This document shows, one piece after another, positions 6,501 to 58,487 of a DNA stretch of 64,000 nucleotides (the first letter of the stretch is position 1; every line of letters begins with the position of its first letter). Below the pieces are notes generated by a model that made no database searches, was not told the origin of the DNA, and saw only the letters and a list, made by a program, of their open reading frames with translations. The stretch spans positions 2,336,001 through 2,400,000 of the forward strand of contig CM000207.1 of NCBI GenBank assembly GCA_000002445.1, given 5' to 3'. The DNA comes from Trypanosoma brucei (lineage: Eukaryota). The position numbers and the translations under genes are program-made.

Positions 6501-9500
6501 CTGCTGCTGAAATTGGAGGTGAGCAGCCCTGATGTGTTAAATGAGTCGGGTATGCTTCCATTTGAGGTTGCCGCAGTGCATAAACATGTGGAATGTGCCT
6601 CTCTCATATTATTGCACACCAAGCTGGATCCTGTGCGGTTACGAGTGCACATCGATCACGGTGATGATCCGGACACCACAGCTAATAGTACAGACAGTAA
6701 CACCCATAACCCCATGCAACTTCTTGCATCTTCTGAGAATGCTGAGGTTTTTGCTGATGTGGTTGATTCAGTGCAACGCATGAGCGGTGACACGTGGCCT
6801 TCAGTGGCGCAGCAGCTGTTTGATACCCTTTCCACTCCAGGTCCTGATGGCATGACGGCGTTAGAGTTGCAGTTGGCTTTGGGAAGAGCTGCGGGGGCAT
6901 TACGGTTGGTGAAAATACTTCAGCGCCTGTCCCTAGATGTAGCAGGGAACTGTGCCTTTGCCGTGTCGAGCAGCATACTTCATCACCTTACAAATGTGTC
7001 CCCTGCAGTGCGTGTGCTTCTCCATGATATGTTTGGCCTCACGGATGTAGCCAAAGGCTACGGAATGAGGCGTCGCCGCTTCGGACGGCTGTCGTTCGCC
7101 GATGTTAGACTGATCGGCATCAGTGCGCTGCAGAGTGACGCTTATTGCGCGGCAGCAACCTCATCCATCTTCACTTTTGGGAACGAGGTCGGTGCAACAT
7201 CTTCACTATTAGAGCGACTTCCCTTTGAGGTTCGTTTTGTGCCCCGTCCGTTCGAACGACGGTCTGCAGCCGAGCGAGCAAAGCTCATCCGATGGCTTGG
7301 ATCCTCCCTTATACTGTCGAGCTACAAACAATTAAGGACATGCGCCCAGTTTGACGCGGTGGAGGTGGAGATCGTGTCCCACCCAGCAGAAGAGTTCGCC
7401 GAACTTGTGGGTGATCATTTACACCATTCAATTTACGTCGACGGCGACTGTCAGCTTGTGGTCCCGGATTTGAATATCATCCTTGGGTTTGCTACCCGAC
7501 GCGAGAAACAGCGGTTGCTGGACGAGGTAGAGCACCTCTGCGGTGTACTTACTGATACTATGCAGTCACTTCCCCATCCTGCGCTTAGTAAAGGTGAGGT
7601 CAAGGTGGACTGGCGCAACTGCAACATTGACGACGTGGAACAGGAGGCTATCGAGTGCCTCATTGAAAATGGGCTAAAGAAGCTGCGGGTGTTCTTGGAG
7701 GGAAATCTTAGGGACTGTCTTTGTGGTGTGAATATGACAGATATATTATCTGTGAAGTGTACTGCAGAACCCGTTACTGAGAAGGTACACATTACCTTTC
7801 AGTACACACGAGAAGCACTGAAAAAGTTTAAGCCATCCGCTACCGAGTTGGGAAGTACCGTTGATGGACTGTTGTGCGTTGTGCGATTTAGTGACGCGGG
7901 CATGGGTGGTTTGGATTTTGTTATGCGCTCGGTCCTGTATCCGGCTACCTTGTCCGACGTGAACTTGGTTGGCGTCAGCCGCATCCGTGATGCATGGGTT
8001 GCTGATGTGTCTCGCCGTGTAGGTCAGCGAATGGGTGGAGAGACAATAGCATTTAAACTCCAGCTCGAAGGAAGTGAATTGCATGAGCTTCCACTGCACC
8101 TTCTCAAGCGTATGATGGCTGATGTGACTGATGCCATAGCTATGCTGATGTCGCGGCCCAGTGCAAAAAAGCACCGATTTCTTGTTTCCCATATCGTAGG
8201 TGAGTCTTTGGCTTCTTCCCTGCGCGCTGTGTTTGTTCTCTTCTCCACGAGCCGGCAACCAACCGCGAGGCGGGCACAGGGTAATCTACTTATTTGCTTC
8301 AATGCCACAATGACGCCTACCATGTCAGATATCTACCAGTGTCTCCGCCGAAGTGCGTTAAAGGATGAGGCCGAGCGCTTAAAGGGGATGCTCATGTCTA
8401 TTGTCTCAACCATGGGTTTGCAACTCAGCGTTGCTCTTCCTGCAGTTCCACTTCTCATGGATGTGTTGGGTTCCTTAAGACATCAAGATACGGAGAATGT
8501 TGTGTCGTTTCTTTCAGTTCTCTGTCACAACGACGGCTCACTCGTGTTAAAGCCCCTCATCGAGGGTGTTTCCATTGGCTGGAAAACGGAGCTTGGGCGG
8601 GTTGTCCGGCGACACGTAAGGCAAATAAGCGTTGCATTGGAGGTGAACGGGGGGGCGTCCTGTGAATTGAAGGAAAACGGAACCTTTGTCTACAAGTGCC
8701 CGCTCAACTGTGCACATGCGGGGTCATACGCTGCGCATTCAAAGGGATTATTATCCGCACAACAGATTGCATCGTTGCTGCTTATTCAAATTGACGCGAT
8801 GGACCCCACAATGCGCAGCCTCATCAGCACAACAAAAGCCATGGCCTGCTGGTCCCGAGCTTGTGGCACCTGCACGCGCCTGTTAGATGCGGGGTCTCAA
8901 CGCTGTTCAATTGTAATTAAGAGGCGTAATATACTTGACCAACCAGTTGGGCAAAGTGCAAGTGATGCCTTCAGCTTCCGCGGCGGGTGGAGCGGGGTCA
9001 AGGTTAAGGGTAGTACAGGTGTGGTGCGATTCACAGCCCCAACCAAAGCTGGCTATTACCTCCAGCATATTTTGCTCAATGATCAGCCACTGTTTAACTC
9101 TCCACTTCGCATCAGGGTTCGACCGCTGGGCCCGCATCTGCCAAACACAAAAATCCTTTCCACCTTCAACGCTGTCGTGGTGAAACGTCCGTTTCATATT
9201 CAACTGTTGTTGCATGACCGGTACCTTAACCGCGTGGCTCACATTTGTCCGCTTCGAATTGAAGCGGTAGACGGCGGCGCGGTGCATGTTGCCGGTTGGA
9301 AGCGGCTTCATGTAGACACGGTAGAGGTGGAAGTAGTTGTAAAGGAAATTTGTGAACAGTGTTCACTGCGGTTTCGGTTATTGGCCCCGGGAGGTGCCGG
9401 AAACTTCGTAGTGGACTATACGGTTGCGTCTGTTACCCCTGACACGTACCGCCAACAGTTTGGACCGGTGAAAAGCCGACTCATGGCAAAAGGGCTGCAA

Positions 9501-31688: not shown

Positions 31689-32579
31689 ATGAGCATCACT
31701 TTTAATAATTTATGGCTACTTTTGACAGTGTTATGCACTGCTAGAATTCGTGCTGATTTCATTGGGGAGGAGTGTCTCGACATAGTCTCTTATCCATCAG
31801 CTGATGTGGTACGCATTTTGTGCCATGTTGCAGGCCAGCTTCGAGGCCTATCACAGACAGTAAGTTCTGCTGTGGAAACTGCCGCTGCTGCTTCGAGTAA
31901 AGCATTTGAAGCAAAGGTACAAGCAGAGGAAGCTGTGGAACTTGCCGAGTCGAGAGGCCTAAACGTTACGAAAGCGAAGGAAGCTGCTGTGAGAGCAACA
32001 CACGCTGCTGAAGCTGCGGCTTTGGCTGCAAGTAACTTGGCTTTTGCCGCTGCAAATATTGCTGCGGTGCCGTGGTCACAACCAATCAGTGATTCCATGT
32101 TGCATAAACTCGCACTATGCGACCACGTCGACGAGTATGTGCGAGAGGCAGCAAAAAAGTGCACAAAGAAAGCGAAGAACGTGACGGCACAATCTCTCAA
32201 TGAGGTCCTCAAAGCGTTTGAGAAGCTGTTCAGTGAAGTAAATGCCTTGCAATCCTTACGGCATAATATTGCTGAGTTCCACAAAGACCTGAAATCGTTA
32301 GAGGATCACGTTGAAGACATTGTCCGTGCACAAAAAAATGCGGAAGATGCAGCTGCAGAGACAAATAAAATAGCAGCGCCTGATCATGAGGTAGGAGGTA
32401 ACAAAGAAGAAACACCAAGTCAACAGCCAGACACAAATCAAGATCAACAGGCAAATGAGAAACCTGAGGCAAATCAGACAGCCGGCACAAATACGGGACC
32501 ACTTGGAAATTCCGTTGCTTCACCTGAAGGGTCAGTGCTGCTACTGATGGCTGGATTGTTTCTCGGTTCTGTACTGTAA
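31689..32579 (+). CDS. BARP: BARP-like alanine-rich surface protein, copy 1 (296 aa)
   Basis: Signal peptide MSITFNNLWLLLTVLCTARIRA; conserved core SSKAFEAKVQAEEAVELAESRGLNVTKAKEAAVRAT; GPI signal NSVASPEGSVLLLMAGLFLGSVL. It carries a unique extension (APDHEVGGNKEETPSQQPDTNQDQQANEKPEANQTAGTNTGPLG) before the GPI signal. Confidence 0.85.
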   Translation: MSITFNNLWLLLTVLCTARIRADFIGEECLDIVSYPSADVVRILCHVAGQLRGLSQTVSSAVETAAAASSKAFEAKVQAEEAVELAESRGLNVTKAKEAAVRATHAAEAAALAASNLAFAAANIAAVPWSQPISDSMLHKLALCDHVDEYVREAAKKCTKKAKNVTAQSLNEVLKAFEKLFSEVNALQSLRHNIAEFHKDLKSLEDHVEDIVRAQKNAEDAAAETNKIAAPDHEVGGNKEETPSQQPDTNQDQQANEKPEANQTAGTNTGPLGNSVASPEGSVLLLMAGLFLGSVL

Positions 32580-45362: not shown

Positions 45363-46381
45363 GAGGTTGCAACTCCATGAATTGTGATCCCAACCATTCC
45401 ACTTGTCTCCACACAGTTATGTGCACATACAAGTGAGGCAGCAAACATCCTTTCACATTAGTATTATTTTCTATCAGTGGCTATTAATATTGTTATTTTA
45501 TTTTGTTTCATTTATACTTTCACTTTTATTATTCTTTTTACTTTACTTTACTTTTCCTTTACTGTGTTATCTTTCGAATATCTGTTCCAACTTTTATCCT
45601 TCATTTTTATAACTGTGCAGCTGAGGTGTGTCTATTTTCCTATTTTCATTTTTATTTTTTTCCTTTACCACCTTTGTTTTTTCATTATTTTATTCATGTA
45701 ATGCACTGAGGTGATTGCGTGTAAGCATGGCCACCTATGCGTTACAATAGTGACACTTTTTTTTTAATCAAAATCTATCATTCCTACGCATCCATAATGT
45801 CCTATTGTATGCGTAAAGCTAACTGATTCTGAGGGGTTTTATTTTATCATGAAGCAAAACTGTTACACTGTGGGTTTACCTTCACATATCTCTCTCCCAT
45901 TACTCATTACACTTATTTTATGTTGTATTCTCTCCCTTTTTATTTCATATCTCTATATTTTATGTTACTGTCAGTAGGTTGTATCGTAATAGTGTAGGAT
46001 ACCCTAAATGCTCAATACATGTGCTCTTACTGGTTCCATCAGATATTGATATTATCGTGTCTAATGAAATGACTATTGGAAGTTTGGATGTGTGCTATTG
46101 CATTGCCTCTCTGCTTTGTAATTATGATATTTGATTTCCACTGTCACTTAGAATTGTATTTAGTAGGGAGTGGGGACAGTTCCATGCTGTGATGTGTGCA
46201 GTGTGCTTAAATGATGAGCTGATTGACTGTAATGGTGTCACTACTCATATTGATACTATTAATGTTGCTATTCTTTGTATTTCCCACTGTTGATTCCAAT
46301 AATCTCTCCTAATTCTCATGACAAGAATCCACTACAAGACAGCAGACACAAGTTTCGATACCATCCAAATTAATAACAATT

Positions 46382-47362
46382 ATGAGCATCACTTTTCATA
46401 ATTTATGGCTACTTTTGACAGTGTTATGCACTGCAGGTATTCGTGCTGACCCAAGTAAGGAGGAGTGTCCGGATTTGGGAGGTTATCCATCAGCTGACGA
46501 CGTACTTGTATTGTGTTATTTGGCGGAACAACTTCGAGGGTTACCGGATACAATAAGTTCTGCTCTTGTTAATGCCGCTGCTGCTTCGAGTAAAGCATTT
46601 GAAGCAAAGGTACAAGCAGAGGAAGCTGTGGAACTTGCCGAGTCGAAAGGCCTAAACGTTACGAAAGCGAAGGAAGCTGCTGTGAGAGCAACACTCGCTG
46701 CTGAAGCTGCGGCCACGGCTGCAAGTAATGTGGAAATTAACGCTGCAAATATTTCTGCTTTCTCTATTGATTTTTTGGAGAGTGCGAACTTGTTGCTGTT
46801 TGAAGTTAGGGACGCAAAAGATGTTGGTGAAGACGTGAGAATCGTGGCGCAAAGGTGCACGGGTGAAGCGAACTTTGTTACGGTTGCTTCTCTAACCAAT
46901 GCACTGGATAATGTTACTTCTCTGTACTCCGTGTATGGTAAAGGCACGGCTTCTTTGAGTATGGAAAGTGTTGCCCTTTTGGAGGAGCTGAAGATGTTGG
47001 AAGATGGCTTGAAGAAGTCACAGGTTGCTGTTTCGGTGGCGGCTGACGCAGCAGACCAGTCGAAACTATTGGTAGATGCAGTTGAAGTATCGGGCAATAC
47101 TGCCAAAGGGGCTGTCAATAACCATAATACCGCAAATAATGAAAGCAACAAAGCAACAAGAAATAAAGATCAAGATGAAGGTAGAACAGTCGGAAACAAC
47201 GACAAGGAATTTACTATAACTTCTGAGGATTATACGAAGAAAAACCAAGGAGAAAACGGGGACCTGAGCTCGATTACCCTTACAGAAGATAGCGGAAGTT
47301 CTTTTATCGCTAAATATCCCTTTCACCTGTGTACCATATTCACTTTCTATACACTTCTATGA
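46382..47362 (+). CDS. Divergent BARP-family member, copy 9 (326 aa): canonical N-terminal half fused to an anciently diverged C-terminal half with a different GPI-like tail
   Basis: It is array-typical through ...AASNVEINAANI, then diverges (SAFSIDFLESANLLLFEV...). The remainder still aligns loosely to the BARP pattern: CTGEANFVTVASLTNALDNVTSLY vs CTKKAENVTAQSLNEALHRLENLY. It ends in an Asn/Thr-rich stretch and a hydrophobic tail (DSGSSFIAKYPFHLCTIFTFYTLL). The 170 bp downstream (47363–47530) is unrelated to the array consensus before the repeat resumes. Confidence 0.7.
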   Translation: MSITFHNLWLLLTVLCTAGIRADPSKEECPDLGGYPSADDVLVLCYLAEQLRGLPDTISSALVNAAAASSKAFEAKVQAEEAVELAESKGLNVTKAKEAAVRATLAAEAAATAASNVEINAANISAFSIDFLESANLLLFEVRDAKDVGEDVRIVAQRCTGEANFVTVASLTNALDNVTSLYSVYGKGTASLSMESVALLEELKMLEDGLKKSQVAVSVAADAADQSKLLVDAVEVSGNTAKGAVNNHNTANNESNKATRNKDQDEGRTVGNNDKEFTITSEDYTKKNQGENGDLSSITLTEDSGSSFIAKYPFHLCTIFTFYTLL

Positions 47363-48321
47363 TAAGCGACGGCGTAACAATTTTTGTCACAAACACATTC
47401 CGAGACGTCATTTAATTAATACAATCATGAATTAAACTTATCCACGGTATATACAAAAGTGCGACTTTCCACGAAAAGGTCGTCATCTTTTCCCTAAAAC
47501 ACCTTCTCTTGTATTTTATAAAAAGTTGTTGTTGCTTTTATCTTTCTTTTTTATAACTGTGCAGCTGAGGTGCGTCTATTTTCCTATTTTCATTTTTATT
47601 TTTTTCCTTTACTAACTTTGTTTTTTCATTATTTTATTCATGTAATGCACTGAGGTGATTGCGTGTAAGCATGGCCACCTATGCGTTACCATTGTAAAAC
47701 CGTGTTACTAAAACGTATCATTCCTACGCATCCATAATGTCCTATTGTATGCGTAAAGCTAACTGATTCTGAGGGTTTTTATTTTATCATGAAGCAAAAA
47801 TGTTACACTGTGGGTTTACCTTCACATATCTCTCTCCCATTACTCATTACACTTATTTTATGTTGTATTCTCTCCCTTTTTATTTCATATCTCTATATTT
47901 TATGTTACTGTCAGTAGGTTGTATCGTAATAGTGTAGGATACCCTAAATACTCAATACATGTGCTCTTGTTGATTCGATCAGATATTGATATTATCGTGT
48001 CTAATGAAATGACTATTGGAAGTTTGGGTGTGTGCTATTGCATTGCCTCTCTGCTTTGTAATTATGATATTTGATTTCCACTGTCACTTAGAATTGTATT
48101 TAGTAGGGAGCGGGGACAGTTCCATGCTGTGATGTGTGCAGTGTGCTTAAATGATGAGCTGATTGACTGTAATGGTGTCACTACTCATATTGATACTATT
48201 AATGTTGCTATTCCCTGTATTTCCTACTGTTGATTCCATTAATCTCTCCTAATTCTCATGACAAGAATCCACTACAAGACAGCACACACAAGTTTCGATA
48301 CCATCCAAATTAATAACAATT

Positions 48322-49104
48322 ATGAGCATCACTTTTAATAATTTATGGCTACTTTTGACAGTGTTATGCACTTCAGGTATTCGTGCTCATCATGTCTGGA
48401 ATGATTGCTTTGCTGATGGAAACCATCCACCTGTAGATGAGATTCCCGTCTTGTGTCGTGTGGCGGAACAACTTCGAGGTTTACCGGATACAATAAGTTC
48501 TGCTGTGGAAACTGCCGCTGCTGCTTCGAGTAAAGCATTTGAAGCAAAGGTACAAGCAGAGGAAGCTGTGGAACTTGCCGAGTCGAAAGGCCTAAACGTT
48601 ACGAAAGCGAAGGAAGCTGCTGTGAGAGCAACACTCGCTGCTGAAGCTGCGGCTACGGCTGCAAGTAATGTGGAAATTAACGCTGCAAATATTGCTGCGG
48701 TGCCGTGGTCACAACGAAGACAGGATGTGGGGTTACAGGAACTTGCACTATGCGACAATGTGGACAAGGATGTACGAGAGGCGGCAGCAAAGTGTACAAA
48801 GAAAGCGGACAACGTGACAGCCCAATCGCTCAGTGCGGCACTAGAAGCGTTGGAGAATTTATACACTGATGTGAATACCCGGGAGACCTTGCGGCGGGAA
48901 GATGTTGAGTTTCACACGGAGCTGAAATCGTTAGAGGAACATGTGGAGGAGGCTGTCCGTGCACAAAAACAAGCTGAGGATGCAGCTGCAGATGCAATTA
49001 AAATAGCCGGTACAAATACGGGACCAGTTGTGAATTCCGTTGCATCACCTGAAGGGTCGGTGCTGCTACTGATGGCTGGATTGTTTCTCGGTTCTGTACT
49101 GTAA
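48322..49104 (+). CDS. BARP: BARP-like alanine-rich surface protein, copy 10 (260 aa)
   Basis: N-terminal variable segment HHVWNDCFADGNHPPVDEIPVLC (copy-5 type); conserved core and GPI signal. Confidence 0.85.
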   Translation: MSITFNNLWLLLTVLCTSGIRAHHVWNDCFADGNHPPVDEIPVLCRVAEQLRGLPDTISSAVETAAAASSKAFEAKVQAEEAVELAESKGLNVTKAKEAAVRATLAAEAAATAASNVEINAANIAAVPWSQRRQDVGLQELALCDNVDKDVREAAAKCTKKADNVTAQSLSAALEALENLYTDVNTRETLRREDVEFHTELKSLEEHVEEAVRAQKQAEDAAADAIKIAGTNTGPVVNSVASPEGSVLLLMAGLFLGSVL

Positions 49105-50117
49105 GAGGTTGCAACTCCATGAATTGTGATCCCAACCATTCCACTTGTCTCCACACAGTTATGTGCACATACAAGTGAGGCAGCAAACATCCTTTGATAT
49201 TAGTATTATTTTCTATCAGTGGCTATTAATATTGTTATTTTATTTTGTTTCATTTATACTTTCACTTTTATTATTCTTTTTACTTTACTTTACTTTTCCT
49301 TTCATTATTTTATCTTTCGAATATCTGTTGTAACTTTTATCCTTCATTTTTATAACTGATTTTCTAGTGTGTTTATTGCCCTACTTTTAGTTGTATTTTT
49401 TCCTTTATTACCTTTTTTATTTCATTATTTTATTCATGTAATGCACTGAGGTGATTGCGTGTAAGCATGGCCACCTATGCGTTACCATTGTAAAACCGTT
49501 TTGCTAAAATCTATCATTCCTACGCATCCATAATGTCCTATTGTATGCGTAAAGCTAACTGATTCTGAGGGTCTTTATTTTATCATGAAGCAAAACTGTT
49601 ACACTGTGGGTTTACCTTCACATATCTCTCTCCCATTACTCATTACACTTATTTTATGTTGTATTCTCTCCCTTTTTATTTCATATCTCTATATTTTATG
49701 TTACTGTCAGTAGGTTGTATCGTAATAGTGTAGGATACCCTAAATGCTCAATACATGTGCTCTTACTGATTCGATCAGATATTGATATTATCGTGTCTAA
49801 TGAAATGACTATTGGAAGTTTGGGTGTGTGCTATTGCATTGCCTCTCTGCTTTGTAATTATGATATTTGATTTCCACTGTCACTTAGAATTGTATTTAGT
49901 AGGGAGTGGGGACAGTTCCATGCTGTGATGTGTGCAGTGTGCTTAACTGATGAGCTGATTGACTGTAATGGTGTCACTACTCATATTGATACTATTGTTG
50001 TTGCTATTCTTTGTATTTCCCACTGTTGATTCCATTAATCTCTCCTAATTCTCATGACAAGAATCCACTACAAGACAGCAGACACAAGTTTCGATACCAT
50101 CCAAATTAATAACAATT

Positions 50118-50900
50118 ATGAGCATCACTTTTCATAACTTATGGCTACTTTTGACAGTGTTATGCACTGCAGGTATTCGTGCTGACTATATCTGGAACAA
50201 CTGCTCTGTTGAAAACAGTCATCCTCCGCTGGAAGAAATACGTGTCTTGTGTCGTGTGGCGGAACAGCTTCGAGGGTTACCGGAGACAGTAAGTTCTGCT
50301 GTGGAAACTGCCGCTGCTGCTTCGAGTAAAGCATTTGAAGCAAAGGTACAAGCAGAGGAAGCTGTGGAACTTGCCGAGTCGAGAGGTCTAAACGTTACGA
50401 AAGCAAAGGAAGCTGCTGTGAGAGCAACACTCGCTGCTGAAGCTGCGGCCACGGCTGCAAGTAATGTGGAAATTAACGCTGCAAATATTGCTGCGGTGCC
50501 GTGGTTACAACCAATCTCTGATGCAGGTTTGGAAAACCTTTCTAAATGCGAGCACATAGACAAGTATGTGCAGGAGGCGGCAGCAGAGTGCTCAAAGAAA
50601 GCAGAACATGTGACGGCTCAATCGCTTAGTGCGGCACTGGAAGGGTTGGAGAATCTATTCACTGATGTGAGTACTAGGGAAGCCTTACGGAAGGAAACCA
50701 TTGAGTTTCACACTGAGCTGAAATCGTTAGAGGAACATGTCGAAGAGGCTGTCCGTGCACAAAAACGGGCTGAGGATGCAGCTGCATATGCGAATCAAAC
50801 AGTCGGTACAAATACGGGACCAGTTGGAAATTCTGTTGCATCACCTGAAGGGTCAGTGCTGCTACTGATGGCTGGACTGTTTCTCGGTTCTGTACTGTAA
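50118..50900 (+). CDS. BARP: BARP-like alanine-rich surface protein, copy 11 (260 aa)
   Basis: N-terminal variable segment DYIWNNCSVENSHPPLEEIRVLC; conserved core and GPI signal. Confidence 0.85.
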   Translation: MSITFHNLWLLLTVLCTAGIRADYIWNNCSVENSHPPLEEIRVLCRVAEQLRGLPETVSSAVETAAAASSKAFEAKVQAEEAVELAESRGLNVTKAKEAAVRATLAAEAAATAASNVEINAANIAAVPWLQPISDAGLENLSKCEHIDKYVQEAAAECSKKAEHVTAQSLSAALEGLENLFTDVSTREALRKETIEFHTELKSLEEHVEEAVRAQKRAEDAAAYANQTVGTNTGPVGNSVASPEGSVLLLMAGLFLGSVL

Positions 50901-51913
50901 GAGGTTGCAACTCCATGAATTGTGATCCCAACCATTCCACTTGTCTCCACACAGTTATGTGCACATACAAGTGAGGCAACAAATATCCTTTGATATTAGT
51001 ATTATTTTCTATCAGTGGCTATTAATATTGTTATTTTATTTTGTTTCATTTATACTTTCATTTTTATTATTCTTTTTACTTTACTTTTCCTTTCATTATT
51101 TTATCTTTCGAATATCTGTTGTAACTTTTATCCTTCATTTTTATAACTGATTTTCTAGTGTGTTTATTGCCCTACTTTTTAGCTATATTTTTTCCTTTAT
51201 TACCTTTTTTATTTCATTATTTTATTCATGTATTGCACTGAGGTGATTGCGTGTAAGCATGGCCACCTATGCGTTACAATAGTGACACTTTTTTTTTAAT
51301 CAAAATCTATCATTCCTACGCATCCATAATGTCCTATTGTATGCGTAAAGCTAACTGATTCTGAGGGGTTTTATTTTATCATGAAGCAAAAATGTTACAC
51401 TGTGGGTTTACCTTCACATATCTCTCTCCCATTACTCATTACACTTATTTTATGTTGTATTCTCTCCCTTTTTATTTCATATCTCTATATTTTATGTTAC
51501 TGTCAGTAGGTTGTATCGTAATAGTGTAGGATACCCTAAATACTCAATACATGTGCTCTTACTGATTCCATCAGATATTGATATTATCGTGTCTAATGAA
51601 ATGACTATTGGAAGTTTGGGTGTGTGCTATTGCATTGCCTCTCTGCTTTGTAATTATGATATTTGATTTCCACTGTCACTTAGAATTGTATTTAGTAGGG
51701 AGTGGGGACAGTTCCATGCTGTGATGTGTGCAGTGTGCTTAACTGATGAGCTGATTGACTGTAATGGTGTCACTACTCATATTGATACTATTGTTGTTGC
51801 TATTCTTTGTATTTCCCACTGTTGATTCCAATAATCTCTCCTAATTCTCATGACAAGAATCCACTACAAGACAGCAGACACAAGTTTCGATACCATCCAA
51901 ATTAATAACAATT

Positions 51914-52678
51914 ATGAGCATCACTTTTCATAACTTATGGCTACTTTTGACAGTGTTATGCACTGCAGGTATTCGTGCTGACGATATCTGGAACGACTGC
52001 CTTGCCAGCAGTAATGGTCCACCACTGAAACACATAGAAGTGTTATGTAATTTGGCGGAACAACTTCGAGGTTTACCGGATACAGTAAGTTCTGCTGTGA
52101 TTTCTGTAACGGAAGCATCTATAAAGGCCTCGAAAGCAAAGGTACAAGCAGAGGAAGCTGTGGAACTTGCCGAGTCGAAAGGCCTAAACGTTACGAAAGC
52201 GAAGGAAGCTGCTGTGAGAGCAACACTCGCTGCTGAAGCTGCGGCTACGGCTGCAAGTAATGTGGAAATTAACGCTGCAAATATTGCTGAACTTCCTTGG
52301 TCTCAAAGGAGGAGAGACGCTGGTTTGCAGAATATTGAACACTGCAAAAATTTGGATAAGGATGTACGAGAGGCAGCAGTAAAGTGTACAAAGAAAGCGG
52401 AGAACGTGACAGCCGATTCTCTCCGTGCGGCACTGGAAGGGTTGGAAACATTGTTCAGCGACGTTTACATACTAGTAACGTTGCGGAAGGAAAAAGTTGA
52501 GATGCAGGAAGAAATGCAATCGTTAGAACAAAACGCAGCGACAGTCCTTCGTGTACTTCAAAAGGCTGAGGATGCAGCAGCTGATGCAAATCGAGAAGCC
52601 CTTGGAAATTCCGTTGCATCACCTGAAGGCTCGGTGCTGCTACTGATGGCTGGATTGTTTCTCGGTTCTGTACTGTAA
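51914..52678 (+). CDS. BARP: BARP-like alanine-rich surface protein, copy 12 (254 aa)
   Basis: N-terminal variable segment DDIWNDCLASSNGPPLKHIEVLC. The segment after the N-terminal variable block is divergent (VISVTEASIKASKAKVQAEE). The C-terminus is shortened (ANREALGNSVASPEGS...). Confidence 0.85.
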   Translation: MSITFHNLWLLLTVLCTAGIRADDIWNDCLASSNGPPLKHIEVLCNLAEQLRGLPDTVSSAVISVTEASIKASKAKVQAEEAVELAESKGLNVTKAKEAAVRATLAAEAAATAASNVEINAANIAELPWSQRRRDAGLQNIEHCKNLDKDVREAAVKCTKKAENVTADSLRAALEGLETLFSDVYILVTLRKEKVEMQEEMQSLEQNAATVLRVLQKAEDAAADANREALGNSVASPEGSVLLLMAGLFLGSVL

Positions 52679-53688
52679 GAGGTTGCAACTCCATGAATTG
52701 TGATCCCAACCATTCCACTTGTCTCCACACAGTTATGTGCACATACAAGTGAGGCAACAAACATCCTTTCATATTAACCTTATTTTCTATCAGTGGCTAT
52801 TAATATTGTTATTTTATTTTGTTTCATTTATACTTTCACTTTTATTATTCTTTTTACTTTACTTTTCCTTTCATTATTTTATCTTTCGAATATCTGTTCC
52901 AACTTTTATCCTTCATTTTTATAACTGATTTTCTAGTGTGTTTATTGCCCTACTTTTAGTTGTATTTTTTCCTTTATTACCTTTTTTATTTCATTATTTT
53001 ATTCATGTAATGCACTGAGGTGATTGCGTGTAAGCATGGCCATCTATGCGTTACAATAGTGACACTTTTTTTTATCAAAATCTATCATTCCTACGCATCC
53101 ATAATGTCCTATTGTATGCGTAAAGCTAACTGATTCTGAGGGTTTTTATTTTATCATGAAGCAAAAATGTTACACTGTGGGTTTACCTTTACATATCTCT
53201 CTCCCATTACTCATTACACTTATTTTATGTTGTATTCTCTCCCTTTTTATTTCATATCTCTATATTTTATGTTACTGTCAGTATGTTGTATCGTAATAGT
53301 GTAGGATACCCTAAATGCTCAATACATGTGCTCTTACTGATTCGATCAGATATTGATATTATCGTGTCTAATGAAATGACTATTGGAAGTTTGGGTGTGT
53401 GCTATTGCATTGCCTCTCTGCTTTGTAATTATGATATTTGATTTCCACTGTCACTTAGAATTGTATTTAGTAGGGAGTGGGGACAGTTCCATGCTGTGAT
53501 GTGTGCAGTGTGCTTAAATGATGAGCTGATTGACTGTAATGGTGTCACTACTCATATTGATACTATTGTTGTTGCTATTCTTTGCATTTCCCACTGTTGA
53601 TTCCATTAATCTCTCCTAATTCTCATGACAAGAATCCACTACAAGACAGCAGACACAAGTTTCGATACCATCCGAATAAATAACAATT

Positions 53689-54474
53689 ATGAGCATCACT
53701 TTTCATAATTTATGGCTACTTTTGACAGTGTTATGCACTGCAGGTATTCGTGGTGATCGAGTCTGGTACGATTGTCCAGAAAAAGGAGTGGACACATCGC
53801 GGGACGACATACAAGCTTTGTGCCGTGCAGCGGAGCAGTTCAGAGGCCTATCACAAACAGTAACATCTGCTGTGGAAACTTCCGCGGCTGCTTCAAGTAA
53901 AGCATTTGAAGCAAAGGTACAAGCAGAGGAAGCTGTGGAACTTGCCGAGTCGAGAGGCCTAAACGTTACGAAAGCGAAGGAAGCTGCTGTGAGAGCAACA
54001 CTCGCTGCTGAAGCTGCGGCCACGGCTGCAAGTAATGTGGAAATTGACGCTGCAAATATTGCTGCGGTGCCGTGGTCACAACCAAGCAGTGATGCAGGTT
54101 TACAAAAGCTGGCACTTTGTGAAAACATCGACAAGAGTTTACGACAGTTGGCATCAAAGTGCTCGAAGAGAGCGGAAAACGTGACGGCCCAATCGCTCAG
54201 TGAGGCGTTGGAGGGACTAAGAAAACTACACTACAATGATGTATACGTTAAGGAAATATTAGAGAGAGAAGATGTTGAGTTCCACAAAGAGTTTATGTGG
54301 TTACAGCACCACCTCCGGGAGGCTGTCCGTGCACAAAAACAGGCTGAGGATGCAGCTGCAGAGGCGAATGAAATAGCCGGCACAAATACGGGACCAGTTG
54401 GAAATTCCGTTGCATCACCTGAAGGGTCAGTGCTGCTACTGATGGCTGGACTGTTTCTCGGTTCTGTACTGTAA
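53689..54474 (+). CDS. BARP: BARP-like alanine-rich surface protein, copy 13 (261 aa)
   Basis: N-terminal variable segment DRVWYDCPEKGVDTSRDDIQALC; conserved core and GPI signal. Confidence 0.85.
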   Translation: MSITFHNLWLLLTVLCTAGIRGDRVWYDCPEKGVDTSRDDIQALCRAAEQFRGLSQTVTSAVETSAAASSKAFEAKVQAEEAVELAESRGLNVTKAKEAAVRATLAAEAAATAASNVEIDAANIAAVPWSQPSSDAGLQKLALCENIDKSLRQLASKCSKRAENVTAQSLSEALEGLRKLHYNDVYVKEILEREDVEFHKEFMWLQHHLREAVRAQKQAEDAAAEANEIAGTNTGPVGNSVASPEGSVLLLMAGLFLGSVL

Positions 54475-55486
54475 GAGGTTGCAACTCCATGAATTGTGAT
54501 CCCAACCATTCCACTTGTCTCCACACAGTTATGTGCACATACAAGTGGGGCAGCAAACATCCTTTCATATTAACCTTATTTTCTATCAGTGGCTATTAAT
54601 ATTGTTATTTTATTTTGTTTCATTTATACTTTCACTTTTATTATTCTTTTTACTTTACTTTACTTTTCCTTTCATTATTTTATCTTTCGAATATCTGTTG
54701 TAGCTTTTATCCTTCATTTTTATAACTGATTTTCTAGTGTGTTTATTGCCCTACTTTTAGTTGTATTTTTTCCTTTATTACCTTATTTTTCATTATTTTA
54801 TTCATGTATTGCACTGAGGTGATTGCGTGTAAGCATGGCCATCTATGCGTTACAATAGTGACACTTTTTTAATCAAAATCTATCATTCCTACGCATCCAT
54901 AATGTCCTATTGTATGCGTAAAGCTAACTGATTCTGAGGGTTTTTATTTTATCATGAAGCAAAACTGTTACACTGTGGGTTTACCTTCACATATCTCTCT
55001 CCCATTACTCATTACACTTATTTTATGTTGAATTCTCTCCCTTTTTATTTCATATCTCTATATTTTATGTTACTGTCAGTAGGTTGTATCGTAATAGTGT
55101 AGGATACCCTAAATACTCAATACATGTGCTCTTACTGATTCCATCAGATATTGATATTATCGTGTCTAATGAAATGACTATTGGAAGTTTGGGTGTGTGC
55201 TATTGCATTGCCTCTCTGCTTTGTAATTATGATATTTGATTTCCACTGTCACTTAGAATTGTATTTAGTAGGGAGTGGGGACAGTTCCATGCTGTGATGT
55301 GTGCAGTGTGCTTAAATGATGAGCTGATTGACTGTAATGGTGTCACTACTCATATTGATACTATTGTTGTTGCTATTCTTTGTATTTCCCACTGTTGATT
55401 CCGTTAATCTCTCCTAATTCTCATGACAAGAATCCACTACAAGACAGCAGACACAAGTTTCGATACCATCCAAATTAATAACAATT

Positions 55487-56269
55487 ATGAGCATCACTTT
55501 TCATAACTTATGGCTACTTTTGACAGTGTTATGCACTGCAGGTATTCGTGCTGACGATATCTTGAATAATTGCTCTGCTGGTAGGAAACCCCCACCGGCA
55601 GTATACGTAACTGCCTTGTGTCGTGTGGCGGAACAACTTCGAGGGTTAGGAGGGACTATTAGTTCCTCTCTTCTTACTGTAACTTCCGCGTCAAGTAAAG
55701 CATTCAAAGCAAAGGTACAAGCAGAGAAGGCTGTGAAACTTGCCGAGTCGAGAGGCCTAAACGTTACGAAAGCGAAGGAAGCTGCTGTGAGAGCAACACT
55801 CGCTGCTGAAGCTGCGGCCACGGCTGTGAGCTATTGTATTACCCATTCTACGAAAGTTGGGTCAATTGCAGAGATGCTATGGGAGGTAGATGAGGAGCTG
55901 CATGTTTTTTCGTTATGTGGTAACAAAGACAGGGATGTACAAGATACGGCATTAAAGTGTACTGATACAGCGGAAGGTGTAACAGCCCAATCGCTCAGTG
56001 AGGCGCTAGAAGGGTTAGCTAAATTAGTTTTTGACGACAACGTTGCTAGAAAGTTGCGGCAGGAAGATACTGTGTTCCAGAGAGAATTTATGTGGTTACA
56101 GCAGCACATGGAGGAGGCTGTCCGTGCACAAAAACAAGCTGAGGATGCAGCTGCAGATGCAAATGAAACAGCCGGCCCAAATACGGGACCAGTTGTGAAT
56201 TCTGTTGCATCACCTGAAGGGTCAGTGCTGCTACTGATGGCTGGACTGTTTCTCGGTTCTGTACTGTAA
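55487..56269 (+). CDS. BARP: BARP-like alanine-rich surface protein, copy 14 (260 aa)
   Basis: N-terminal variable segment DDILNNCSAGRKPPPAVYVTALC. The core has substitutions (KAFKAKVQAEKAVKLAE). The central block (AVSYCITHSTKVGSIAEMLWEVDEELHVFSLCGNKDRDVQD) is related to that of copies 6 and 8. Confidence 0.85.
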   Translation: MSITFHNLWLLLTVLCTAGIRADDILNNCSAGRKPPPAVYVTALCRVAEQLRGLGGTISSSLLTVTSASSKAFKAKVQAEKAVKLAESRGLNVTKAKEAAVRATLAAEAAATAVSYCITHSTKVGSIAEMLWEVDEELHVFSLCGNKDRDVQDTALKCTDTAEGVTAQSLSEALEGLAKLVFDDNVARKLRQEDTVFQREFMWLQQHMEEAVRAQKQAEDAAADANETAGPNTGPVVNSVASPEGSVLLLMAGLFLGSVL

Positions 56270-57446
56270 GAGGTTGCAACTCCATGAATTGTGATCCCAA
56301 CCATTCCACTTGTCTCCACACAGTTATGTGCACATACAAGTGAGGCAGCAAACATCCTTTCATATTAACCTTATTTTCTATCGATAATTATATATTTTTT
56401 AAAATTTCCTTTATATTTTCACTTTTATTATTCTTTTTACTTTACTTTACTTTTCCTTTACTGTGTTATCTTTCGAATATCTGTTGTAGCTTTTGTCCTT
56501 TATTTTCTTAATTTTTTTTAATTGTCGGGAAAGTCTCGTAATTAATAAAAATAAGTTTTTTATTACCTTTTTTTTTAATTATTTTATTCATGTATTGCAC
56601 TGAGGTGATTGCGTGTAAGCATGGCCACCTATGCGTTACCATTGTAAAACCGTTTTGCTAAAATCTATCATTTCTACGCATCCATAATGTCCTATTGTAT
56701 GCGTAAAGCTAACTGATTCTGAGGGTTTTTATTTTATCATGAAGCAAAACTGTTACACTGTGGGTTTACCTTCACATATCTCTCTCCCATTACTCATTAC
56801 ACTTATTTTATGTTGTATTCTCTCCCTTTTTATTTCATATCTCTATATTTTATGTTACTGTCAGTAGGTTGTATCGTAATAGTGTAGGATACCCTAAATG
56901 CTCAATACATGTGCTCTTACTGATTCCATCAGATATTGATATTATCGTGTCTAATGAAATGACTATTGGAAGTTTGGGTGTGTGCTATTGCATTGCCTCT
57001 CTGCTTTGTAATTATAATATTTGATTTGTTCTTGCATCGTGTTATGTTTTTATGTTTCTTTTTTGTTTATAGGATAGTATTATTTTTTGTTATGATGTTG
57101 AAATTTCGTACTTCAAAAAAAATATTAGTGGTGTAATATCCTTTCCTTTGTCGGTTATTTAGTTTTTCTCTTGACACCTTGTTTCTATTGTTATTGACCT
57201 TTTTTTCCCCCATTCTTTTAATCATTTACTTTCTTCTTTTTTAATATATGTGTACTTTATAGTTTCTTTATGTTCTAATATTGCTTGTTCGTGTTATTGT
57301 GTTGGTGCGAAAATAATTCATTTTTTTTTTTGTCGTTGTTTCATATATCCTTGTGCATATTTTTCTTTGGCTTCTCTTTTGTAGTAATAAGTGTGGAAGG
57401 TGGAGGGCGGAGGGAACGAGTGAGTTTTAATACAAATTAGTCGTAG

Positions 57447-58487
57447 ATGCACTCATGTTGGATTGGTTCGCTGTTACTACTAGTGGGACTTATGTTTTTT
57501 AGTATTGTTTGCCGAGCAAATGGAACGGAAGTGAAGCCGCTGGAAGAAAGTGCAGAGGATATTTGTGCGGCCATGAAGTCCCTTAATACCGTAAATAACA
57601 CTGTACAAAATATTATTACCACCATACGCAATCACAAGGCGAAATTGATACGCTATCTCCAGGATGTAGAGACGGCATTTGAAAGGACGAGTAGCGCAGC
57701 CGCTGCAGCGAAACAATACGGGGGAACCTTCCGAACTGCGTCGGTGGCATCAAAAATTGCGAATGACGCAATGTCCAACTCCACGCGGGCCATGTTGGAT
57801 GCTGAAACGAGTCACAACACGACTCTTATTATTGAGGCGGCGGCGAATATTGAAGCACAGAGCGCGAGAGACAACGCAACTGCCGCCGCTGTGGCACTTC
57901 AGGCGATATGGAAAACGACAGTTGGCACTGCCAGACTTCAAGCGAACCATACGGATTGTGTGTATACACCAGCTGATCAGATGTTGACGTCCCAGAAGCT
58001 GAATGAGCACAAAGAGAAGCTGGTGGTAACAGATAGCAAATATAATGATGAACACAAGGAGTTGAAGGAGCTTTGGGCGCGGAGTTATCTGAAGCTCTTC
58101 CTCCCGCTCGACCAGCTCCATATGTTATTGCAAAAGTTGGAATGGGATGTTGCCACAACGTCAGAGATGGAAACCACTGCAGAAAAGGCAGCTGATGCAG
58201 CAGTAGCGGCGCAAGAGGATGTTGAGAAGGCGGCAGAGTTGGCGGCGGAGAGTGCGACAGAATCTGTACGGGCAAAACGATACTCTGATCGTGTCGCAAG
58301 AGGGAATATGAAATTTAAAACCATCGCAGGATTTCATGAGGAACCTCTACCCGAGGTCGTCCCTCGTCCCGGGGCAAAGGCATCTGCCGCGTCCGATCCA
58401 TTGGAAAATGAAGACGGCGCTTTTTATGTGTCCAGGGGAATAATGCCGCTCAGTCAAGCTTTTTTCGTAATTGCGTTTACCATATAA
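57447..58487 (+). CDS. Distinct alanine-rich, N-glycosylation-site-rich predicted GPI-anchored surface protein (346 aa), not a member of the array consensus
   Basis: N-terminal signal peptide MHSCWIGSLLLLVGLMFFSIVCRANG. The body is alanine-rich and predicted helical (SSAAAAAKQYGG, AAANIEAQSARDNATAAAVALQAIW, AEKAADAAVAAQEDVEKAAELAAESATE). At least 7 N-x-S/T sequons. The short C-terminal hydrophobic tail (IMPLSQAFFVIAFTI) is typical of a GPI-attachment signal. It sits between the BARP array and the adenylate cyclase. Confidence 0.65.
   Translation: MHSCWIGSLLLLVGLMFFSIVCRANGTEVKPLEESAEDICAAMKSLNTVNNTVQNIITTIRNHKAKLIRYLQDVETAFERTSSAAAAAKQYGGTFRTASVASKIANDAMSNSTRAMLDAETSHNTTLIIEAAANIEAQSARDNATAAAVALQAIWKTTVGTARLQANHTDCVYTPADQMLTSQKLNEHKEKLVVTDSKYNDEHKELKELWARSYLKLFLPLDQLHMLLQKLEWDVATTSEMETTAEKAADAAVAAQEDVEKAAELAAESATESVRAKRYSDRVARGNMKFKTIAGFHEEPLPEVVPRPGAKASAASDPLENEDGAFYVSRGIMPLSQAFFVIAFTI

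What the first reader, a model, noticed from the sequence alone, without database searches (positions are those of the whole stretch)
46382..47530. Array copy 9 is a chimera: canonical N-terminal half joined to an anciently diverged C-terminal half and its own 3' flank
Up to nt 46750 (…AASNVEINAANI) copy 9 is identical or nearly so to its neighbours. After that the protein reads SAFSIDFLESANLLLFEVRDAKDVGEDVRIVAQRCTGEANFVTVASLTNALDNVTSLYSVYGKG..., which aligns only loosely to the family (CTxxAxxVTxxSLxxALxxxxxLY) and at far lower identity than any other pair. It is followed by a long Asn/Thr/Lys-rich hydrophilic extension and a different hydrophobic tail (FIAKYPFHLCTIFTFYTLL). The 170 bp after its stop (47363–47530) is also non-consensus before the repeat resumes. 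This looks like a relic of an older, distinct BARP subtype captured in the array by recombination. It is either a functional variant coat protein with a long glyco-stalk or a decaying copy.
Basis: seen in the sequence. Interest (0 to 1): 0.6.

Follow-up and report, generated by a model that had tools for sequence, protein, structure and literature searches.

The report
Mosaic BARP surface-protein gene, copy nine
One gene in the Trypanosoma brucei BARP surface-coat array (already annotated as Tb927.9.15590) carries a very old, divergent 3' half with its own tail and 3' flank.

Summary
The window is T. b. brucei TREU927 chromosome 9, and the ORF at 46382-47362 is the 9th of 14 tandem BARP genes (XP_827696.1, Tb927.9.15590). 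Up to 46753 it is up to 99-100% identical to some sister copy, except in the N-terminal variable patch. From 46754 to about 47524 DNA identity falls to 0.2-0.46, then returns to above 0.9.

The divergent half is still a genuine BARP/GARP-family half. On its own it hits Pfam GARP at E=5e-19, and the AlphaFold model overlays T. congolense GARP. It is nevertheless further from canonical BARPs than T. congolense GARP is. After it come a roughly 60-residue disordered linker, a different and weaker hydrophobic tail, and a unique 3' flank of about 160 nt.

It is not an assembly artefact, because T. b. gambiense has the same junctions. Several signs point to relaxed constraint:
- dN/dS is 0.88 against 0.25 for the other copies.
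- A conserved cysteine is lost.
- Salivary-gland mRNA is 4-20 times lower.
- The gambiense copy is frameshifted.

The most likely cause is an old 3' cassette that escaped the gene conversion homogenising the rest of the array. The literature already notes the unusual C-terminal domain, so interest is low.

The parts
46382..47362 (+). BARP copy 9, full CDS (326 aa plus stop). It equals XP_827696.1 / UniProt Q38CV4 and, by position, Tb927.9.15590.
   Evidence: ORF list. An exact sequence look-up returns 'BARP protein, T. b. brucei TREU927'. Pfam GARP PF16731 scores 207.8 bits over aa 39-224. The gene ID is inferred from three things: it is the 9th of 14 IDs Tb927.9.15510-15640, the literature remark on the C-terminal domain, and the set of copies carrying the ...AESK variant of the conserved core peptide.
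46382..46753 (+). Homogenised 5' part, coding for the signal peptide (aa 1-23), the N-terminal variable patch (aa 24-60) and the conserved helix core (aa 61-124).
   Evidence: Best-neighbour DNA identity is 1.00 over 46382-46445, 0.88 over 46446-46560 and 0.99 over 46561-46753. dN/dS of the core between brucei and gambiense is 0.11.
46754..47107 (+). Divergent helical C-half (aa 125-242). It supplies the third-helix half of the GARP-type bundle. The Cys...VTxxSL motif is kept (C159, V166-L171), but Cys144 is missing.
   Evidence: DNA identity to any other unit is at most 0.46. Protein identity is 24-32%. Pfam GARP positions 95-192 match at E=5e-19 for this half alone. AF2 pLDDT is about 80-95, with helices running to aa 242. 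Foldseek against 2Y44 gives a target-normalised TM of 0.95 and rmsd 1.4 A.
47108..47287 (+). Hydrophilic Asn/Thr/Asp/Glu/Lys-rich extension (aa 243-302), predicted to be disordered.
   Evidence: pLDDT is below 50 from aa 242. Composition of the tallied 77-aa stretch (aa 229-305, a little wider than this part): N 16%, S+T 19%, charged residues 29%, and a single N-x-S/T sequon at N253. There is no DNA or protein match elsewhere.
47288..47359 (+). Putative non-canonical GPI-addition signal (aa 303-326). It has candidate omega residues D303/S304/G305, the spacer SSFIAKYP, and the hydrophobic stretch FHLCTIFTFYTLL.
   Evidence: Read from the sequence. The best 12-residue Kyte-Doolittle mean is 1.45, against 2.31-2.56 (2.34 in most) for the canonical SVLLLMAGLFLGSVL. 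BigPI and FragAnchor list all 14 BARPs as GPI-positive in Savage 2012 Table S4. None of this has been tested experimentally.
47363..47524 (+). Copy-specific first ~160 nt of the 3' flank (the presumed start of the 3' UTR).
   Evidence: Identity to other units is 0.35-0.40, where those units are 0.88-0.98 identical to each other. It is 94% identical to the T. b. gambiense orthologue.
47525..48321 (+). Shared intergenic repeat, which resumes here and runs up to the ATG of copy 10.
   Evidence: Identity to the best neighbour is 0.92 over 47525-47640 (units 7 and 8) and 0.98-0.99 beyond.

Best explanation
Copy 9 is the annotated BARP paralogue Tb927.9.15590. It is a mosaic produced by uneven concerted evolution inside the tandem array. 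Three regions are kept near-identical to sister copies by gene conversion: the upstream intergenic region, the 5' CDS (signal peptide plus the first helices), and the intergenic region from about 47525 onward. The 770-bp block at 46754-47524 is an old BARP/GARP-clade cassette. It is now so different at the DNA level that it can no longer recombine with its neighbours, so it has persisted as a separate lineage.

The block encodes four things:
- the second half of the three-helix GARP-type bundle;
- a disordered linker of about 60 residues;
- a different, weaker C-terminal hydrophobic (GPI-type) signal;
- its own 3' UTR start.

If it is made, the product would be a BARP-like head on a flexible tether at the surface of salivary-gland epimastigotes. 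The present evidence indicates that this block is under relaxed constraint, so the copy is a minor and probably decaying isoform.

Shown: the boundaries, family membership of both halves, presence in two subspecies, and the dN/dS contrast. Inferred: gene conversion as the homogenising force, the age of the block, GPI anchoring, and loss of function.
For: - Sharp boundaries, with 0.98-1.00 identity outside the block and 0.2-0.46 inside.
- The C-half alone matches Pfam GARP at E=5e-19 and folds as GARP in the model.
- Depth: the canonical-BARP profile scores T. congolense GARP at 62-65 bits and c9 at 45-46. The GARP profile scores canonical BARPs at 33-61 bits and c9 at 26-27. C-half identities are 24-32% for c9 against canonical copies, 28% for c9 against GARP, and 28-42% for canonical copies against GARP.
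- The canonical BARP and GARP hydrophobic tails resemble each other (VLLLMAGLFLGSVL against VLLLLAALHFSAGL). The c9 tail does not.
- The same junctions occur in T. b. gambiense. There the 5' variable patch has been rewritten (13 changes clustered at 46450-46475), while the block is collinear at 95.7% identity. This is direct evidence that conversion acts outside the block and not inside it.
- No donor or other relative of the block exists in the searched databases apart from that orthologue.
- Relaxed constraint: 19.5 nonsynonymous to 6.5 synonymous changes, omega 0.88, against a pooled 0.25 for six canonical orthologue pairs (Fisher p=0.004).
- Cys144, present in all 13 other copies and in GARP, is absent.
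- Salivary-gland read counts are 255, against about 990-5350 for the six other BARPs whose values were retrieved (PMC8483307 S5).
- T. b. gambiense has a +1 frameshift just after the signal peptide.
Against: - The tree placing c9 outside BARP+GARP has only 49% bootstrap support on about 100 columns. Faster evolution after loss of constraint could mimic an old split.
- omega 0.88 rests on 26 substitutions and cannot reject omega 0.5 (p=0.16). If only the frameshifted gambiense copy is dead, the TREU927 copy could still be constrained.
- The ORF is intact in TREU927, the transcript is co-regulated (8-fold up in salivary glands), and two published predictors accept the GPI signal.
- Reads from the shared 5' half may inflate or blur the expression figure.
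- Gene conversion is inferred from the pattern, not observed.
Confidence: 0.6

Rival explanations
1. Copy 9 is a functional, selectively maintained 'stalked' BARP isoform. The divergent half gives a different ligand or antigenic surface. The disordered linker lifts the head above the canonical BARP coat. The private 3' UTR start gives it its own expression level or timing.
For: - The 326-codon ORF is intact in TREU927.
- The block has kept a clean GARP-domain signature and a confidently predicted bundle despite about 70% amino-acid divergence. This implies purifying selection over most of its history.
- The transcript is up-regulated in salivary glands, log2FC 2.9, p=1.7e-8.
- BigPI and FragAnchor predict a GPI anchor.
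- The related MISP proteins use long disordered C-terminal tethers (PMC10089363).
Against: - omega is 0.88 against 0.25 in sister copies.
- One of the four conserved ectodomain cysteines is lost, leaving an odd number.
- The hydrophobic tail is weaker.
- There is only one N-glycosylation sequon in the linker.
- mRNA is 4-20 times lower than for the other BARPs.
- The copy is frameshifted in T. b. gambiense and absent from the sequenced part of the T. equiperdum array.
- No isoform-specific peptide has been reported. The peptides assigned to it are shared with six other copies.
Confidence: 0.22
2. The block is not old. It comes from a canonical BARP 3' half that lost function and then diverged quickly by unconstrained mutation, so the deep branch is only a long branch.
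For: - dN/dS is near neutral and divergence from the gambiense orthologue (4.3%) is similar to flanking non-coding DNA (5.5-5.9%).
- A conserved Cys is lost.
- Bootstrap support for a pre-BARP/GARP split is weak.
Against: - Neutral decay to random-level DNA identity (0.2-0.46) would take many times the brucei-gambiense divergence at this locus (0.04-0.06). Over that time an ORF of about 200 codons should have acquired stops and indels, since 3.6% of single substitutions in it create a stop. The helix pattern should also have been lost, yet it scores 69 bits on Pfam GARP and folds confidently.
- c9 shares with GARP a one-residue indel state at the start of the block that all canonical BARPs lack.
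- It is no further from the outgroup (factor H receptor) than GARP is.
Confidence: 0.13
3. The block is an assembly mis-join or collapse, or a foreign 3' end captured from an unrelated gene such as a VSG.
For: Tandem arrays are prone to mis-assembly. From memory only, the tail ...GSSFIAKYPF... loosely recalls the VSG GPI signals of the ...SFVISKTPLWL... type.
Against: - The independent T. b. gambiense DAL972 sequence is collinear through both junctions, with 105 mismatches and one 1-bp indel in 2.2 kb.
- The helical part of the block is homologous to the GARP family, not foreign.
- The conserved VSG 3' UTR 16-mer, recalled from memory, has no match with 3 or fewer mismatches in the c9 flank.
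- No protein outside the orthologue matches the block.
Confidence: 0.03

Closest known systems
Canonical BARP (brucei alanine-rich protein) paralogues Tb927.9.15510-15640, the other 13 copies in this window
   Same: Copy 9 lies in the same tandem array. It has an identical signal peptide and conserved core (aa 61-124 up to 98% identical), the same Pfam GARP domain, the same three-helix-bundle prediction, the C...VTxxSL motif, a C-terminal hydrophobic signal, and up-regulation in salivary glands.
   Different: From aa 125 it is only 24-32% identical, where the others are 38-100% identical to each other. It lacks Cys144. It has about 60 extra disordered residues. Its C-terminal signal is unrelated and less hydrophobic. 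The first ~160 nt of its 3' flank are unique. Its mRNA is 4-20 times lower, and its dN/dS is 0.88 instead of about 0.25.
T. congolense GARP (glutamic acid/alanine-rich protein; PDB 2Y44; Pfam PF16731)
   Same: The fold is the same (model against 2Y44: TM 0.95, rmsd 1.4 A). The locus is syntenic: in T. congolense the array sits directly next to a receptor adenylate cyclase, while in T. brucei a 346-aa gene lies between them. The c9 block shares with GARP one indel state and a CTG(E/A)A motif that most canonical BARPs lack.
   Different: The two are only about 28% identical over the C-half. The GARP tail resembles the canonical BARP tail, not that of c9. GARP has no long linker.
MISP (metacyclic invariant surface proteins, Fam50; PDB 5VTL)
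   Same: The architecture is the same: a triple-helical head, a disordered C-terminal tether and a GPI signal. MISP is also expressed at the salivary-gland stage.
   Different: There is no significant sequence similarity (E=6.7 against 5VTL). MISP sits at a different locus on chromosome 7, and its tethers are built of repeats, whereas the c9 linker is not repetitive.

Membership tests
BARP/GARP family (Pfam PF16731; Fam50 of the trypanosome cell-surface phylome) | The GARP domain profile matches above Pfam's gathering score. | tested here: met
   The whole protein scores 207.8 bits and the divergent half alone 69 bits (profile positions 95-192). The cut-off is 27.4 bits.
BARP/GARP family (Pfam PF16731; Fam50 of the trypanosome cell-surface phylome) | A ubiquitous cysteine is followed by a VTxxSL motif (Jackson et al. 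2013, PMC3605285). | tested here: met
   C159 ... V166-T-V-A-S-L171 lies inside the divergent half.
BARP/GARP family (Pfam PF16731; Fam50 of the trypanosome cell-surface phylome) | An elongated three-helix bundle as in GARP 2Y44. | tested here: met
   The AF2 model has pLDDT 80-97 over aa 38-242. Foldseek's top hit is 2Y44 (E=6e-10, TMt 0.95), followed by MISP 5VTL and the factor H receptor 6XZ6. This is a prediction only, and the input alignment consisted of sister BARPs.
BARP proper (T. brucei epimastigote coat protein) | Four conserved ectodomain cysteines (C29, C45, C144, C158). | tested here: not met
   c9 has C29, C45 and C159 but no equivalent of C144. The gambiense orthologue lacks it too. 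All 13 other copies and GARP have it.
BARP proper (T. brucei epimastigote coat protein) | The conserved C-terminus ...GNSVASPEGSVLLLMAGLFLGSVL (GPI signal) and the conserved start of the 3' UTR. | tested here: not met
   These are replaced by ...TEDSGSSFIAKYPFHLCTIFTFYTLL and an unrelated 160-nt flank.
BARP proper (T. brucei epimastigote coat protein) | GPI anchoring. | tested here: inconclusive
   Small residues (D-S-G-S-S), an 8-residue spacer and a 13-residue hydrophobic end fit the general rule, but hydrophobicity is lower (1.45 against 2.34). Published BigPI and FragAnchor screens mark all 14 BARPs positive. There is no biochemical test.
BARP proper (T. brucei epimastigote coat protein) | Membership of the chromosome 9 tandem array, with the shared signal peptide and conserved core epitope KVQAEEAVELAESK. 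| tested here: met
   It is the 9th of 14 units. The signal peptide is 87-100% identical to the others, and the epitope is present exactly.
BARP proper (T. brucei epimastigote coat protein) | Expression specific to salivary-gland epimastigotes. | not testable with these tools
   From the literature only. Tb927.9.15590 rises from 30 (proventriculus) to 255 (salivary glands), log2FC 2.9, against about 990-5350 for the other BARPs whose values were retrieved (PMC8483307). The assigned peptides are shared with other copies.

The most novel reading that the evidence does not exclude
The 770-bp block is the only surviving remnant of a third BARP/GARP-like lineage that predates the T. brucei / T. congolense split. 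On this reading it is still used in tsetse-transmissible T. b. brucei as a separately regulated, tethered BARP isoform with its own GPI signal and 3' UTR element.
Probability: 0.12. Interest if true: 0.45.

Novelty: already known. Interest (0 to 1): 0.22.

Why it matters
BARP is the coat of the tsetse salivary-gland epimastigote, and its function is still unknown. A naturally occurring isoform with a different head half and a tether could, if it is expressed, serve as a probe for what the BARP head binds.

The locus is also a clean small example of how gene conversion homogenises parts of a surface-antigen array while leaving old cassettes untouched.

However, the gene is already annotated, its unusual C-terminal domain is already noted in the literature, and the evidence here points to a minor copy that is probably decaying. 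The practical consequence is therefore small. The main points are a caution for read mapping and peptide assignment within the BARP family, and a note that Tb927.9.15590 should not be treated as a typical BARP.

Tried and rejected
- Donor search. The 203-aa divergent half was searched in two ways: by word-indexed HMMER against 5.8 billion proteins, and by exhaustive phmmer against 1.84 billion cluster representatives. Only the T. b. gambiense orthologue was returned. Relatives below about 35-40% identity would fall under the E-value threshold at that database size, so this excludes close relatives only.
- BLASTN and TBLASTN of the block against the rest of the window, the gambiense locus and the T. 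congolense GARP locus. There was no DNA match. TBLASTN found only the weak family-level similarity within the window, and nothing in T. congolense. The canonical control also found nothing there, so that test was insensitive.
- An exact look-up of the c9 protein in assemblies, to find other strains, returned nothing.
- T. equiperdum locus. The block is absent from the 20.9 kb fetched. That array is rearranged and partly frameshifted, and the organism is not tsetse-transmitted, so this says little.
- VSG 3'-end capture. The 16-mer, recalled from memory, is not in the c9 flank.
- Relationship of the block to the neighbouring 346-aa gene. BLASTP and hhalign were both negative.
- Profile search from the BARP alignment, and a GARP query, to collect wider Fam50 members. 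These returned only T. brucei-group BARPs and T. congolense GARPs. The tree therefore has few outgroups.
Full report
**What the window is.** The window holds 14 tandem ORFs of 254-326 aa, with ATGs from 31689 to 55487 and a period of about 1.8-1.9 kb. A 346-aa ORF and a receptor-type adenylate cyclase follow them. An exact-sequence look-up identifies the 326-aa ORF at 46382..47362 as 'BARP protein, Trypanosoma brucei brucei TREU927' (XP_827696.1, Q38CV4) on a 3.06-Mb contig.

The 14 BARP genes are numbered Tb927.9.15510 to 15640, so the ninth should be Tb927.9.15590. Two independent points support this mapping:
- Casas-Sanchez et al. [quoted passage not shown]
- Their list of isoforms sharing one group of peptides corresponds to copies 2, 3, 5, 9, 10 and 12. 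These are six of the seven window copies that read ...AESK rather than ...AESR in the conserved core peptide. The seventh, copy 6, matches if '15660' in their legend is read as 15560.

**Check of the observation.** I aligned the 14 repeat units and slid a 50-nt window along unit 9.
- Identity to the other units is 0.95-1.00 in the signal peptide and in the core (46560-46750).
- It falls to 0.3-0.5 between about 46757 and 47510.
- It recovers to 0.7-0.9 from 47525 and to 0.93 or more from 47607.

At base level the last shared position is 46753/46757 and similarity resumes at about 47525. By segment, the best-neighbour identity is 0.99 over 46561-46753, 0.46 over 46754-47053, 0.34 over 47054-47362, 0.40 over 47363-47524, and 0.92 or more afterwards.

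At protein level, aa 125-228 of copy 9 is 24-32% identical to every other copy. The lowest of the 78 pairs among the other copies is 38% and the median is 50%. The quoted peptide, the extension, the tail and the non-consensus 3' flank are all there.

**Two refinements.**
1. All BARP copies have a variable N-terminal patch (aa 24-60). Copy 9 is not 'nearly identical' to its neighbours there (32-78%).
2. The 5' break coincides with a family-wide boundary. The 13 canonical copies themselves are only 0.58-0.71 identical in DNA over aa 121-210.

Every BARP gene is therefore a mosaic of homogenised blocks and older variable cassettes. [quoted passage not shown] It also runs on through the part that is otherwise 0.85-0.98 identical in all copies: aa ~211 to the stop, the GPI signal and the first ~160 nt of the 3' flank.

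**What the divergent half is.** On its own, the 203-aa half matches Pfam GARP (PF16731) at profile positions 95-192 with E=5e-19 and 69 bits, against a cut-off of 27.4. It keeps the family's Cys...VTxxSL motif, described in PMC3605285.

An AlphaFold2 model, built from an alignment of the window's BARPs, gives a helical bundle from aa 38 to 242 with pLDDT mostly 80-97. Everything from aa 242 to the end is below 50. The model's best PDB matches are T. congolense GARP 2Y44 (target-normalised TM 0.95, rmsd 1.4 A), then MISP 5VTL and the T. brucei factor H receptor 6XZ6.

So the block supplies a bona fide second half of the bundle, followed by a disordered linker of about 60 residues and a hydrophobic end. 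The tallied 77-aa stretch spanning the linker is 16% Asn and 19% Ser+Thr but has only one N-x-S/T sequon, so the 'glyco-stalk' idea has little support. The tail is less hydrophobic than the canonical one (best 12-residue Kyte-Doolittle mean 1.45 against 2.34). Copy 9 also lacks Cys144, which all 13 other copies and GARP have, leaving three ectodomain cysteines. Published BigPI and FragAnchor screens list all 14 BARPs as GPI-positive.

**How old the block is.** Several lines bear on this.
- Identities over the C-half: copy 9 against canonical BARPs 24-32%; copy 9 against T. congolense GARP 28%; canonical BARPs against GARP 28-42%.
- Profile scores: a profile of the 13 canonical C-halves scores GARP at 62-65 bits and copy 9 at only 45-46. 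A GARP profile scores canonical BARPs at 33-61 bits and copy 9 at 26-27. The factor H receptor scores lower still.
- A neighbour-joining tree places copy 9 outside BARP+GARP, but with only 49% bootstrap support.
- Copy 9 shares with GARP a one-residue indel state at the start of the block.
- The GARP hydrophobic tail resembles the canonical BARP tail, not that of copy 9.
- The T. congolense GARP array is syntenic, lying next to an adenylate cyclase.

Together these favour a lineage at least as old as the BARP/GARP split, although a long branch caused by faster evolution is not excluded. No other relative exists in the searches I could run. Both the word-indexed search of 5.8 billion proteins and the exhaustive phmmer scan of 1.84 billion representatives returned only the T. 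b. gambiense orthologue. There is thus no identifiable donor, and 'captured by recombination' cannot be told apart from 'never homogenised'.

**Not an artefact, and evidence for conversion.** The T. b. gambiense DAL972 locus (L001) is collinear with window 46100-48321 through both junctions, at 95.1% identity with a single 1-bp indel. Within the block the two subspecies differ by 4.3%, similar to the private 3' flank (5.9%) and the shared intergenic DNA (5.5%). In the N-terminal variable patch, by contrast, the gambiense copy carries a cluster of 13 changes that rewrites it to a copy-1-like sequence. So sequence exchange has occurred in the 5' part since the two diverged, but not in the block. 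This fits the model in which the block is too different to be a conversion substrate.

**Is it still functional?** The evidence points several ways.
- In T. b. gambiense the only indel is a +1 insertion at the position equivalent to 46475. It shifts the frame directly after the signal peptide, and the annotated 295-aa product starts at an internal Met without a signal peptide.
- Between the subspecies the block has 19.5 nonsynonymous and 6.5 synonymous differences (omega 0.88). The conserved core of the same gene has omega 0.11.
- Six canonical BARP orthologue pairs give omega 0.15-0.38 for the same region, pooled 0.25. The contrast is significant (Fisher p=0.004). Omega 0.3 is rejected (p=0.009), but omega 0.5 is not (p=0.16).
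- The open reading frame over this short time says nothing. With 3.6% of substitutions creating stops, 26 substitutions leave it open 39% of the time.
- In tsetse RNA-seq, Tb927.9.15590 rises from 30 in the proventriculus to 255 in salivary glands (log2FC 2.9). It therefore stays 4-20 times below the other BARPs whose values were retrieved, which reach about 990-5350 (PMC8483307). Reads from the shared 5' half may contribute to that figure.
- Saliva-proteome peptides assigned to it are shared with six other isoforms.
- The part of the T. equiperdum array I could fetch lacks the block.

On balance, the block was constrained for most of its history, because it still scores and folds as a GARP half. 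It now looks relaxed. Function in TREU927 cannot be excluded.

**Verdict.** The gene is, however, an annotated BARP, and its exceptional C-terminal domain has been remarked on in print. The mosaic is an extreme case of a pattern shared by the whole array, and the copy appears to be a minor, probably decaying isoform. I rate it as already known, with low interest. The incremental points are the depth of the cassette relative to GARP, the conversion boundary, and the dN/dS contrast.

Noticed in passing
L001 9906-10888 (T. b. gambiense DAL972, orthologue of window 46382-47362): There is a single-base insertion at the position equivalent to window 46475. The signal-peptide frame then stops after ...EECSAYGR*, and the annotated 295-aa 'BARP protein' CBH14895.1 starts at an internal Met with no signal peptide. 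The adjacent 25 nt look like a patch converted from a copy-1-like gene.
   Followed up: partly
window 57447-58487 (+): This is a 346-aa ORF between the BARP array and the adenylate cyclase. It has an N-terminal hydrophobic leader, an Ala-rich helical-looking body with several N-x-S/T sites, and a hydrophobic C-terminus. It has no Pfam family and is unrelated to BARP by BLASTP and hhalign. It is present in T. b. gambiense, where the surrounding stretch (window 56270-58329) is 97.6% identical. It is absent from the syntenic T. congolense locus, where the last GARP is followed directly by the cyclase.
   Followed up: partly
window 31689-56269 (whole array): All BARP copies are mosaics, with two variable zones (aa 24-60 and aa 121-210) between near-identical blocks. 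Copies 6 and 8 have identical C-halves. Copies 6, 8 and 14 share an alternative cassette that starts about 30 nt earlier (around 46722 in unit-9 coordinates). Copies 1, 4, 5 and 7 carry an insert of about 18-36 aa before the GPI signal; the N-terminal part of that insert aligns weakly with the start of the copy 9 extension. Copy 14 has an extra Cys117.
   Followed up: partly
L002 900-20873 (T. b. equiperdum QSBY01000017.1): The BARP array is rearranged. It has three consecutive copy-13-like units, two of them frameshifted. The copy-14-like unit is broken into two frames. A retroelement-like insertion (endonuclease and zinc-finger ORFs, 2959-7203) sits inside the array. This is as expected for a lineage that no longer passes through tsetse.
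   Followed up: no
window 46100-58330 against L001: This locus is unusually divergent between T. b. brucei 927 and T. b. gambiense. Divergence is 2.4% in the single-copy stretch downstream of the array and 4-6% within array units. Copy order and number also differ between the two.
   Followed up: no
L003 4519-20771 (T. congolense IL3000 CAEQ01001962.1): Five identical-length GARP genes (256 aa, period about 2.7 kb) are followed by a receptor adenylate cyclase. BARP and GARP arrays thus sit at syntenic positions next to a GRESAG4-type cyclase.
   Followed up: no
window 46516-47151 (-), also 31790-32284, 48390-48866, 55831-56355 (-): Long antisense ORFs (156-211 aa) lie inside BARP coding regions. 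They are most likely a by-product of the Ala/Glu-rich (GCN/GAR) codon composition rather than real genes.
   Followed up: no
PMC10089363, Fig 1 legend (literature): The legend lists 'Tb927.9.15660' among BARP isoforms sharing a group of peptides. The other six IDs correspond to window copies 2, 3, 5, 9, 10 and 12. Together with copy 6 these are exactly the copies carrying ...AESK, so '15660' is probably a misprint for 15560.
   Followed up: partly
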